Of a stretch of 4,056 nucleotides of DNA, positions 2,933-4,056 are shown piece by piece. Numbering within the stretch: the first letter of the stretch is position 1; each line of letters starts with the position of its first letter. This DNA comes from a virus. Taxonomy: Duplodnaviria > Heunggongvirae > Uroviricota > Caudoviricetes. Below the pieces are notes generated by a model. The model searched no databases. It was not told the origin of the DNA and worked only from the letters and a program-made list of their open reading frames with translations. The translations under genes and the position numbers were made by a program. The stretch is from positions 1 to 4,056 of IMG/VR virus record IMGVR_UViG_2529293039_000008. One strand, given 5' to 3'.

Positions 2933-3769
2933 ATGGCAGTAAAGATTTCAGGTGTACTGAAAGACGGCACAGGAAAACCGGTACAGAACTGCACAATCCA
3001 GCTGAAAGCAAAACGTAACAGCACCACGGTGGTGGTGAACACGCTGGCCTCAGAAAATCCGGATGAAGCCGGGCGTTACAGTATGGACGTTGAGTATGGC
3101 CAGTACAGCGTCACCCTGCTGGTTGAAGGTTTTCCTCCTTCGCATGCCGGGACCATCACAGTGTATGAAGATTCTCAACCCGGTACGCTGAATGATTTTC
3201 TCGGTGCCATGACGGAGGATGATGCCCGTCCGGAGGCACTGCGACGTTTTGAACTGATGGTGGAAGAGGTGGCGCGTAACGCTGAGGAGGCGAAGAAGAA
3301 TGCCGGAGAGGCGGAGACGTCAGCAAGGAATGCCGGCATATCAGCCAGTCAGGCGGAAAAGAGCGCTGCACATGCTGACACTTCAGCAGGATATGCATCG
3401 GAGTCAGCCCGGCAGGCGGCAGAAAGTGCAGCCTCAGCAAAGCAGTCAGAGGAGGCGTCCTCGTCCTCGGCCTCTGAGGCCGCTCAAAAAGCCAGTGAGT
3501 CATCACAAAGTGCAGCAGAAGCTGAATTGTCAAGAAAGACGGCAGAAAGTGCAGCCGGTAATGCAGCCAGGGATGCAACGACCGCAGCAGAAAAAGCCCG
3601 GGAGTCAGCAGAAAGCGCACAGTCAAGCGGAACAAAGCAGGATAGCGGCGGAAGACGCCGTAACCGAATCCCACCGTGGTGGGACCTCCGGGCCAACTGT
3701 CTCTTGATCAGATCTCCCGATCAAGAGACTTCATCACCAGGTAACCCTCAACCATATCCTGAAGTCTGA
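2933..3769 (+). CDS. stf: Side tail fibre protein Stf, N-terminal fragment, truncated by IS insertion. Stf-derived sequence ends at 3696; the open frame then reads 24 codons into the IS end before stopping at 3769.
   Basis: MAVKISGVLKDGTGKPVQNCTIQLKAKRNSTTVVVNT...YSMDVEYGQYSV...FPPSHAGTITVYEDSQPGTLNDFL...ARPEALRRFELMVEEVARNA matches the conserved N-terminal domain of lambda Stf as recalled, followed by the characteristic Ala/Ser/Glu-rich low-complexity segment. ATG at 2933 is preferred over the in-frame GTG at 2927 because of RBS spacing. The frame collides with an IS terminal repeat at 3697. Confidence 0.8.
   Translation: MAVKISGVLKDGTGKPVQNCTIQLKAKRNSTTVVVNTLASENPDEAGRYSMDVEYGQYSVTLLVEGFPPSHAGTITVYEDSQPGTLNDFLGAMTEDDARPEALRRFELMVEEVARNAEEAKKNAGEAETSARNAGISASQAEKSAAHADTSAGYASESARQAAESAASAKQSEEASSSSASEAAQKASESSQSAAEAELSRKTAESAAGNAARDATTAAEKARESAESAQSSGTKQDSGGRRRNRIPPWWDLRANCLLIRSPDQETSSPGNPQPYPEV
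3697..3715. repeat. Terminal inverted repeat of the IS50-like element, containing Dam GATC sites
   Basis: 19-bp end sequence beginning CTG. GATC at 3706-3709 and 3711-3714, with a third GATC just inside at 3719-3722. Confidence 0.7.
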
Positions 3770-4056
3770 ACCAGCCATCCCACATGACTACCCAACCGGG
3801 GCGACCGGTGCGTTTGCTGTCATGCCATCGCCCCAGTTTCGCCAGTTTCAGACAGGCCCATTTCAGTGTCGGCATCTGTGACGGAAGCGGTTTTCCTTCC
3901 AGCTTAACCCACAGCAGTTTCCACTCTGTCGGCGTCAGTATTTTCTCACAGCTGTCATTTTGTGTTTCTTCACTGATACCGCCCTGCCGCAGGCCCAGCA
4001 CCCGCACCGCGATAAACGCCTTGATAACCACCATGCGCTCGAGGTTATCCCGGGTC
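3708..4056 (-). CDS. IS4-family DDE transposase (Tn5 Tnp-like), C-terminal ~115 codons; N-terminus lies beyond the window
   Basis: The - strand frame is open from the window edge: TRDNLERMVVIKAFIAVRVLGLRQ...LKLAKLGRWHDSKRTGRPGWVVMWDGWFRLQDMVEGYLVMKSLDREI*. It resembles the Tn5 transposase C-terminus as recalled (DNLERMV...GGFMDSKRTGIASWGALWEGWEALQ...GIKI*). The TGA stop (complement of 3708-3710) is embedded in the terminal repeat. Confidence 0.85.
   Translation of the reverse strand, partial: TRDNLERMVVIKAFIAVRVLGLRQGGISEETQNDSCEKILTPTEWKLLWVKLEGKPLPSQMPTLKWACLKLAKLGRWHDSKRTGRPGWVVMWDGWFRLQDMVEGYLVMKSLDREI

What the first reader, a model, noticed from the sequence alone, without database searches (positions are those of the whole stretch)
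3650..3770. stf is truncated by an IS insertion after about 255 codons
The Stf reading frame runs directly into the IS terminal repeat at 3697, within the codons ...AAC TGT CTC.... The ORF then continues for 24 codons of IS-derived sequence (CLLIRSPDQETSSPGNPQPYPEV) and stops at 3769. The C-terminal receptor-binding part of Stf and the downstream tail-fibre assembly gene tfa are absent from the window. Side tail fibres are therefore predicted to be non-functional, comparable in outcome to the stf frameshift known in laboratory lambda. The other IS end and any target-site duplication lie outside the window, so a simple insertion cannot be told apart from an IS-mediated deletion or rearrangement.
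Basis: partly seen in the sequence, partly recalled or inferred. Interest (0 to 1): 0.6.

Follow-up and report, generated by a model that had tools for sequence, protein, structure and literature searches.

The report
ISEc13 insertion truncating a prophage tail-fibre gene
A common E. coli jumping gene (ISEc13) has landed in the side-tail-fibre gene of a lambda-like prophage and cut it short, which is an ordinary, already-recorded kind of prophage decay, and the window's sequence near the junction probably carries base-count errors.

Summary
The core claim holds. Homology to intact 437-aa Stf-like genes stops exactly at 3696. From 3697 the window is the terminal 360 bp of ISEc13, a 1550-bp Tn5/IS50-like IS4-family element, with its transposase on the minus strand (stop 3708-3710).

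The break lies in native codon Lys256, five residues into the collagen-like repeats. The product keeps the phage_tail_N domain and an Ala/Ser/Glu-rich linker. It loses the collagen shaft and the Phage_fiber_C domain.

Details need correcting:
- Four single-base homopolymer indels private to the window (3625, 3661, 3669, 3687) scramble the last ~25 phage codons, so the frame entering the IS is not the native one.
- With them corrected the product is 258 aa, ending ...GPPGP-TVS*. Exactly this protein is on record as EHU47425.1 (E. coli DEC2D). The "24-codon IS tail" is therefore probably an artefact.
- Three similar indels break J.
- ISEc13 makes 8-bp, not 9-bp, duplications.
- The gene after stf in relatives is an 89-aa Phage_fiber_C protein, not tfa.

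The native stf site is the best ISEc13 target in the region, including the flank that only intact homologues show. This argues for a simple insertion originally; later rearrangement cannot be excluded. Ordinary; low interest.

The parts
1..2199 (+). 3' part of the lambdoid host-specificity gene J. As written it is split into two frames (35-1462 and 1360-2199) by three private 1-base homopolymer indels at 1373 (-G), 1395 (-A) and 1429 (+T).
   Evidence: There are 0 substitutions against L003 in 1-1500, yet 3 indels within 57 bp.
2269..2868 (+). lom (Ail/Lom outer-membrane protein), intact. Terminator-like hairpins lie on either side at 2218-2241 and 2895-2916.
   Evidence: The exact 199-aa product is on record in 229 blocks of the collection.
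2933..3696 (+). 5' part of the stf-like gene ('prophage tail fiber N-terminal domain-containing protein'). It covers native codons 1-255 plus the first base of Lys256, and encodes phage_tail_N (aa 1-133) plus an Ala/Ser/Glu-rich linker.
3625..3687 (+). Cluster of four single-base homopolymer length changes private to the window (+A 3625, -A 3661, -C 3669, -C 3687). They shift the stf frame three times after a first shift, and are probably sequence errors.
   Evidence: the same 7 indels appear against L003, L014 and L015. (the corrected product equals EHU47425.1 exactly).
3697..4056 (+). Terminal 360 bp of ISEc13 (1550 bp in reference copies), at the end next to the transposase stop codon. It is 99.7% identical to E2348/69 copies, with one private SNP at 3718 (C where 7 other copies have T).
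3697..3715 (+). 19-bp terminal repeat of the IS, CTGTCTCTTGATCAGATCT. From memory it is identical to the IS50/Tn5 inside end.
   Evidence: The identity to the IS50 inside end is my own knowledge, not tool-tested.
3699..3729 (.). Hairpin-forming inverted repeat inside the IS end (11-bp stem here, 13 bp in reference copies). A second, inverted copy of the terminal motif lies at 3717-3731.
   Evidence: -10 versus -13.5 kcal/mol, z -3.5 and -5.3.
3708..4056 (-). 3' end (115 codons plus stop at 3708-3710) of the ISEc13 transposase, covering the Tn5-type dimerisation domain. The third-last residue is Arg instead of Gln because of the SNP at 3718.
3705..3707 (+). TGA that ends the fusion in the native stf frame (...GPPGP-TVS*), giving the 258-aa product recorded for E. 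coli DEC2D.
   Evidence: (the ORF 3300-3707 ends here).
3767..3769 (+). TGA that ends the ORF as written in the window (278 aa from ATG 2933).

Best explanation
The window is the tail end of a lambdoid prophage (J-lom-stf) of an EPEC-type E. coli, in which one copy of ISEc13 transposed into stf.

What ISEc13 is: a 1550-bp IS4-family element with a Tn5-like DDE transposase.

Where it sits:
- The IS lies after the first base of native codon Lys256, at the start of the collagen-like Gly-X-Y region.
- Its transposase gene points back toward stf.

How it works:
- Translation of stf runs into the IS end and stops almost at once, 3 codons in the native frame.
- The resulting ~258-aa protein keeps the N-terminal tail-attachment domain and linker.
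- It lacks the trimerising collagen shaft and the C-terminal Phage_fiber_C domain, so functional side tail fibres cannot be made from this gene.

Origin of the event:
- It was most likely a simple cut-and-paste insertion into an intact stf. The predicted 8-bp duplication is CGGGCCAA.
- The native site (ACCTCC-CGGGCCAA-AGGGGG) is an unusually good match to the C-rich/G-rich flanks that ISEc13 prefers.

Sequence quality:
- The four indels just upstream of the junction and the three in J are most likely errors of this particular assembly, not biology.

Shown: the exact junction, the IS identity, the lost domains, independent occurrence of the same fusion protein, and the target-site match.
Inferred: loss of fibre function, simple insertion, and the indels being errors.
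For: - Break at 3696/3697 in all comparisons.
- 3697-4056 is 99.7% identical to ISEc13 ends in E2348/69 and others, annotated 'IS4-like element ISEc13 family transposase'.
- The window's transposase fragment hits Pfam Dimer_Tnp_Tn5. The full reference transposase matches Tn5 transposase structures at E=7e-83.
- Intact Stf is phage_tail_N 1-133, Collagen from 251, Phage_fiber_C 363-426.
- The corrected 258-aa fusion product equals EHU47425.1 of E. coli DEC2D exactly, including the IS-encoded TVS.
- ISEc13 shows 8-bp duplications in 7 copies at 6 sites.
- A half-site matrix from 16 other ISEc13 half sites ranks the stf site 1st of 4580 positions, score 13.98 against 9.22 for the runner-up.
- The right half AGGGGG, seen only in intact homologues, is the top-scoring hexamer. 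Only 0.009% of positions in a 10.8-kb prophage stretch score as high.
- The 7 indels are shared by no reference, all are mononucleotide-run length changes, and they fall in two clusters of 57 and 63 bp. There are 0 substitutions against L003 in 1-1500.
- Frameshifted products are absent from the protein collection.
Against: - The other IS end, the duplication and the rest of stf are outside the window, and the source contig could not be retrieved. A simple insertion in this particular genome is therefore not shown.
- No read data exist here to prove the indels are errors.
- The target matrix rests on few sites, and I picked the independent ones by eye.
- Loss of fibre function is inferred from domain content only.
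- Whether the prophage was otherwise functional is unknown.
Confidence: 0.85

Rival explanations
1. ISEc13-mediated deletion or rearrangement. The IS first inserted here or elsewhere. Recombination between ISEc13 copies, or an adjacent deletion, then removed or relocated the 3' part of stf, the small fibre gene and the downstream effector cargo. What follows the IS would then not be stf.
For: - Related EPEC genomes carry many ISEc13 copies: about 30 places in the E2348/69 chromosome and up to 32 per genome. This gives ample substrate for recombination.
- The right side of the IS is not in the window.
- Prophage tail regions in relatives show other IS insertions and deletions.
Against: - The native right flank in intact stf matches the ISEc13 target preference perfectly. 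The founding event was therefore an insertion into intact stf.
- Nothing in the window indicates a later rearrangement.
Confidence: 0.25
2. The junction is an assembly or cloning chimera that joins a prophage contig to a repeated IS, not a real insertion.
For: - The junction lies 10 bp from a cluster of four probable base-calling errors. This suggests poor read support in that stretch.
- The junction is absent from 5426 complete E. coli genomes and from five other collections.
Against: - The join is at the exact first base of the IS.
- The site is the best-scoring ISEc13 target in the region.
- An independent GenBank assembly (E. coli DEC2D) encodes the same fusion, including the three IS-derived residues.
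Confidence: 0.03
3. The seven indels are real mutations. On this view stf and J were decaying pseudogenes independently of the IS, and the 278-aa chimeric ORF with a 23-residue IS-encoded tail is the true product.
For: - The window as given contains the indels.
- Prophage genes do decay.
- I have no reads with which to check them.
Against: - All seven are single-base homopolymer length changes, in two tight clusters.
- There are no private substitutions nearby: 0 in 1-1500 against L003.
- None is shared by any of thousands of relatives.
- The indel-free product exists exactly in DEC2D, while none of the frameshifted products is on record.
- With the window's CC at 3687 the left half site scores -0.55. 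With the native CCC it scores 6.06.
Confidence: 0.1

Closest known systems
ISEc13 (IS4 family, IS50/Tn5-like) copies in EPEC E2348/69 and other E. coli
   Same: - The terminal 360 bp are 99.7% identical.
- The 19-bp end and internal hairpin are the same.
- The transposase C-terminus has the Tn5-type dimerisation domain.
- The flanks of the target fit the same C-rich/G-rich pattern.
   Different: - One private SNP at 3718 changes Gln to Arg at the third-last residue and weakens the hairpin.
- This insertion site, inside stf, is seen in none of 5426 complete genomes.
EHU47425.1, 'prophage tail fiber family protein' of E. coli DEC2D (258 aa)
   Same: Identical to the window's stf product once the four indels are corrected, including the IS-encoded C-terminal Thr-Val-Ser. 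It is therefore the same stf::ISEc13 allele.
   Different: The window as written has four frameshifting indels and reads 278 aa. I could not fetch the DEC2D contig to compare DNA or the downstream side.
Intact 437-aa Stf-like tail-fibre proteins of EPEC/EHEC lambdoid prophages (for example WP_001592266.1 of RM14723; also 434 and Stx phages)
   Same: - The J-lom-stf synteny is the same.
- The DNA is 98.9% identical over 2900-3696.
- The phage_tail_N domain and linker are the same.
   Different: The window lacks everything from Lys256 on: the collagen repeats, the Phage_fiber_C domain and the following 89-aa Phage_fiber_C gene.
The stf frameshift of laboratory lambda (lambda PaPa versus Ur-lambda; my own knowledge of Hendrix and Duda 1992)
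   Same: A lambdoid side-tail-fibre gene is truncated so that the distal, receptor-binding part is not made. J-dependent adsorption should be unaffected in principle.
   Different: - The cause here is an IS insertion, not a 1-base deletion.
- The fibre is of the shorter collagen/Phage_fiber_C type, not lambda's 774-aa Stf with Tfa.
- This is a resident prophage with unknown viability.

Membership tests
ISEc13 (IS4 family, IS50-like group) | Terminal sequence and adjacent DNA identical or nearly identical to reference ISEc13 copies | tested here: met
   Window 3697-4056 is 99.7% identical to E2348/69 copies and starts at the same first base.
ISEc13 (IS4 family, IS50-like group) | Tn5-type DDE transposase (Tnp_DNA_bind, DDE_Tnp_1, Dimer_Tnp_Tn5) | tested here: inconclusive
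   Only the last 115 codons are in the window, and they hit Dimer_Tnp_Tn5 (27.7 bits, cut-off 26.7). The full reference protein has all three domains and matches Tn5 transposase structures at E=7e-83. The DDE core of this copy lies outside the window.
ISEc13 (IS4 family, IS50-like group) | A second, imperfectly inverted end about 1550 bp away, with an 8-bp target-site duplication | not testable with these tools
   The window ends 360 bp into the IS. Reference copies are 1550 bp with 8-bp duplications. The source contig could not be retrieved.
ISEc13 (IS4 family, IS50-like group) | Insertion at the kind of target the element prefers (C-rich hexamer, 8 bp, G-rich hexamer) | tested here: met
   The native site ACCTCC-CGGGCCAA-AGGGGG ranks 1st of 4580 positions. 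The half sites rank 12th and 1st of 4096 hexamers. The pattern is seen in 43 unique left flanks.
Lambdoid Stf-like 'prophage tail fiber N-terminal domain' proteins | phage_tail_N (PF08400) domain at the N-terminus | tested here: met
   E=8e-70, residues 1-133.
Lambdoid Stf-like 'prophage tail fiber N-terminal domain' proteins | Position directly after J and lom in a lambdoid tail module | tested here: met
Lambdoid Stf-like 'prophage tail fiber N-terminal domain' proteins | Collagen-like repeats and a Phage_fiber_C C-terminal domain, as in intact 437-aa members | tested here: not met
   Both are absent from the window's product and present in the intact homologue at 251-309+ and 363-426. This absence is the truncation itself.
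Lambda Stf/Tfa system | A tfa tail-fibre assembly gene immediately downstream of stf | tested here: not met
   In ten intact relatives the next gene is an 89-aa PF06820 Phage_fiber_C protein, followed by type III effector genes. No gene annotated as tfa lies there. Nothing downstream is in the window.

The most novel reading that the evidence does not exclude
ISEc13 and its relatives choose targets by a symmetric motif: a C/T-rich run ending about 8 bp before the cut, mirrored by a G/A-rich run.
- Strings of Gly-Pro codons (GGN CCN) in collagen-like phage tail-fibre genes create such motifs.
- These genes would then be preferential landing sites, and this stf insertion would be an example of sequence-directed rather than random prophage inactivation.
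- I found no description of this preference in the papers searched, but ISfinder could not be consulted.
Probability: 0.45. Interest if true: 0.3.

Novelty: already known. Interest (0 to 1): 0.12.

Why it matters
It matters little beyond annotation. The locus should be annotated as an stf pseudogene interrupted by ISEc13, in a lambdoid prophage of the kind that carries type III effector cargo in EPEC. The product should be given as the 258-aa native-frame truncation, not a 278-aa chimera.

The practical lesson concerns data quality. Two clusters of homopolymer indels make J and the end of stf look more degraded than they probably are, so frame-based inferences from this sequence need read-level confirmation.

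The one by-product of modest general interest is the clear target-site preference of ISEc13-type elements. It lets one infer that the insertion hit an intact gene even though the far side is missing.

Tried and rejected
Attempts to find the source or any second copy of the junction:
- A 26-nt junction pattern robust to the indels gave 0 hits in genome contigs, viral contigs and metagenome contigs.
- BLAST of the junction found no place spanning it in complete E. coli genomes, phages or plasmids.

Exact-protein look-ups:
- The window's stf ORF (both starts) and two J-fragment ORFs are not on record.
- The lom look-up returned ten intact relatives but not the source.

Other leads:
- An apparent 12-bp extension of the match into the flank of the pMAR2 ISEc13 copy turned out to be chance similarity.
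- Literature searches for ISEc13 and DEC2D gave only passing mentions. The DEC collection genome announcement is not held.
- The idea that 3697-3769 is a native alternative Stf C-terminus is rejected. No homologue continues that way, and the sequence is IS DNA.
- The IS-end hairpin as an intrinsic terminator for read-through from stf is rejected. No T-run follows it, and the scan did not list it.
- I did not run the large protein searches. They return only cluster representatives, and the relevant cluster's representative is an uninformative 218-aa partial.

Full report
**What is in the window.** ORF listing and comparison with annotated E. coli genomes show the distal end of a lambdoid tail module.
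- 1-2199: the 3' part of J.
- 2269-2868: lom.
- From ATG 2933: an stf-like gene that RefSeq calls 'prophage tail fiber N-terminal domain-containing protein'.
- The whole stretch 1-3696 is 97-98.4% identical to prophages of EPEC-type strains (L003, FDAARGOS_1059, O111:H2 12A, E2348/69).
- In these relatives stf is 437 aa. It is followed by an 89-aa Phage_fiber_C gene and then by type III effector genes such as nleB2/nleC/nleD, nleH/cif/espJ or espW.

**The junction.**
- In every comparison the similarity to stf ends at 3696.
- From 3697 the window is 99.7% identical to one end of ISEc13, annotated 'IS4-like element ISEc13 family transposase'. ISEc13-like sequence occurs in 1845 of 5426 complete E. 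coli genomes, with about 30 chromosomal places in E2348/69.
- Alignment with two E2348/69 copies shows that the IS begins at exactly the same base, CTGTCTCTTGATCAGATCT....
- Reference copies are 1550 bp. The other end reads ...TGTGTATAAGAGACAG.
- The transposase is encoded on the minus strand, with its stop at 3708-3710. The window holds its last 115 codons, which hit the Tn5 dimerisation domain.
- The full reference protein has Tnp_DNA_bind, DDE_Tnp_1 and Dimer_Tnp_Tn5, and matches solved Tn5 transposase structures at E=7e-83.

**Where stf is cut.**
- The intact protein has phage_tail_N at 1-133, an Ala/Ser/Glu-rich stretch to about 250, collagen Gly-X-Y repeats from 251, and Phage_fiber_C at 363-426.
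- The IS sits after the first base of native codon Lys256 (...VVGPPGP|KGEQG...).
- The product keeps the attachment domain and linker. It loses the shaft and the distal domain.
- Loss of side-fibre function is an inference from this domain content. It is the reasonable one, and it parallels the lambda PaPa stf frameshift (my own knowledge).

**The reading frame is not what it seems.** Base-by-base comparison with three references gives the same seven single-base differences in length.
- Three are in J: 1373 GGGG>GGG, 1395 AAA>AA, 1429 T>TT.
- Four are in the last 72 bases of stf: 3625 A>AA, 3661 AAA>AA, 3669 CCCC>CCC, 3687 CCC>CC.
- All are mononucleotide-run changes, clustered within 57 and 63 bp, and private to the window.
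- Over 1-1500 there is not one substitution against L003.
- lom and the IS part carry none of these indels.
- The consequence is that window residues 232-243 and 247-254 are out-of-frame translations, and the frame entering the IS is shifted.

**An independent record of the same allele.**
- Correcting the four stf indels gives a 258-aa product ending ...GPPGP-TVS*, with the stop at 3705-3707.
- An exact-sequence look-up found precisely this protein in the public collection: EHU47425.1, 'prophage tail fiber family protein', E. coli DEC2D, on a 314,884-bp contig.
- The window's own 278- and 280-aa readings and the two J-fragment ORFs tried (279 and 262 aa) are not on record.
- The same stf::ISEc13 allele therefore exists in an independent assembly without the indels. 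The 24-codon IS-derived tail is most likely a by-product of sequence errors.
- I cannot prove this without reads, and I give the 'real mutations' reading about 10%.

**Simple insertion or rearrangement?** The far side is outside the window. Indirect evidence is available from target choice.
- Seven ISEc13 copies at six sites all have 8-bp duplications, not ~9 bp.
- Their flanks are strikingly biased: a C/T-rich hexamer to the left of the duplication and a G/A-rich one to the right.
- The bias holds in 43 unique left flanks from Enterobacterales genomes. C occupies position -13 in 40 of 43, and there is no A at -13 to -11.
- I built a half-site matrix from 16 half sites of other copies and scanned a reconstructed native J'-lom-stf-fibre-C region. 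The actual site, ACCTCC-CGGGCCAA-AGGGGG, ranks first of 4580 positions, at 13.98 against 9.22 for the runner-up.
- The right half AGGGGG is found only in intact homologues. It is the single best-scoring hexamer, and only 0.009% of positions in a 10.8-kb prophage stretch score as high.
- The left half scores well only with the native CCC (6.06), not the window's CC (-0.55). This is further support that the 3687 deletion is not original.
- The founding event was therefore very probably a normal transposition into an intact stf, with predicted duplication CGGGCCAA.
- Later recombination between the many ISEc13 copies of such strains cannot be excluded. I give that about 25%.

**Rivals rejected.**
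- A native alternative C-terminus is excluded, because no homologue reads through and the sequence is IS DNA.
- An assembly chimera is very unlikely, given the exact IS terminus, the optimal target site and the independent DEC2D record.

**Comparison with known things and verdict.**
- This is an IS insertion pseudogenising a prophage structural gene, which is a routine form of prophage decay. Relatives show IS3, IS2 and IS200-type elements in the same modules.
- The allele is already present in GenBank as a truncated protein.
- It does not belong to the lambda Stf/Tfa arrangement in the strict sense, because relatives have a Phage_fiber_C gene rather than tfa downstream.
- The finding is real in substance and correctly interpreted. 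It is wrong in the frame details, and of low interest.
- The only mildly novel by-product is the ISEc13 target preference, and the possibility that collagen-like Gly-Pro codon runs attract it.

Noticed in passing
window 1373, 1395, 1429: Three private single-base homopolymer indels within 57 bp split J into two frames (net -1). There are 0 substitutions against L003 over 1-1500. They are probably sequence errors; if real, the host-specificity protein is inactivated too.
   Followed up: partly
L002 2487-4064 and L013, L016-L065 (flanks of ISEc13-type ends); native stf site at window 3683-3696: ISEc13-type elements show a strong target preference: a C/T-rich run at -14 to -7 and a G-rich run at -3 to -1, mirrored on the other side. 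Many targets are palindromes such as CCTCTCCC-ACA-GGGAGAGG. Duplications are 8 bp for the 1550-bp E. coli element, and apparently 9-10 bp for 1485-1488-bp relatives in Scandinavium and Pantoea.
   Followed up: partly
window 3697-3731; L002 2501-2535: The IS end carries its terminal motif twice in inverted orientation, forming a 13-bp hairpin that overlaps the transposase stop codon and contains three GATC sites. The window's copy has a private T>C change at 3718. This weakens the hairpin (-13.5 to -10 kcal/mol) and changes Gln455 to Arg.
   Followed up: partly
L002 4030-4050: The other ISEc13 end reads CTGTCTCTTATACACAAAT on the opposite strand. From memory this is nearly the Tn5 'mosaic end' used in tagmentation (CTGTCTCTTATACACATCT). 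The end in the window equals the IS50 inside end. A natural element thus seems to combine both end types. This was not checked against a Tn5 sequence.
   Followed up: no
window 2218-2241 and 2895-2916: Terminator-like hairpins with T-runs lie on either side of lom (one before it, one between lom and stf), the layout of a 'moron' gene. The number found is no more than shuffles give, so this rests on position only.
   Followed up: no
window 1-3696 versus L003, L014, L015, L001: Substitutions are very unevenly distributed. Against L003 there are none in 1-1500 and 37 in 3001-3500, whereas stf is closest to RM14723 (98.9%). This indicates recombinational mosaicism among lambdoid prophage tail modules.
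   Followed up: partly
L001 3088-4301; L004 10798-11256; L014 10714-11942: Related prophages carry other IS elements in or next to the same tail region: an IS3-family element where the tail genes between the tube gene and lom would lie, an IS200-type element between lom and stf, and IS2 after the fibre genes. IS disruption of these modules is therefore commonplace.
   Followed up: no
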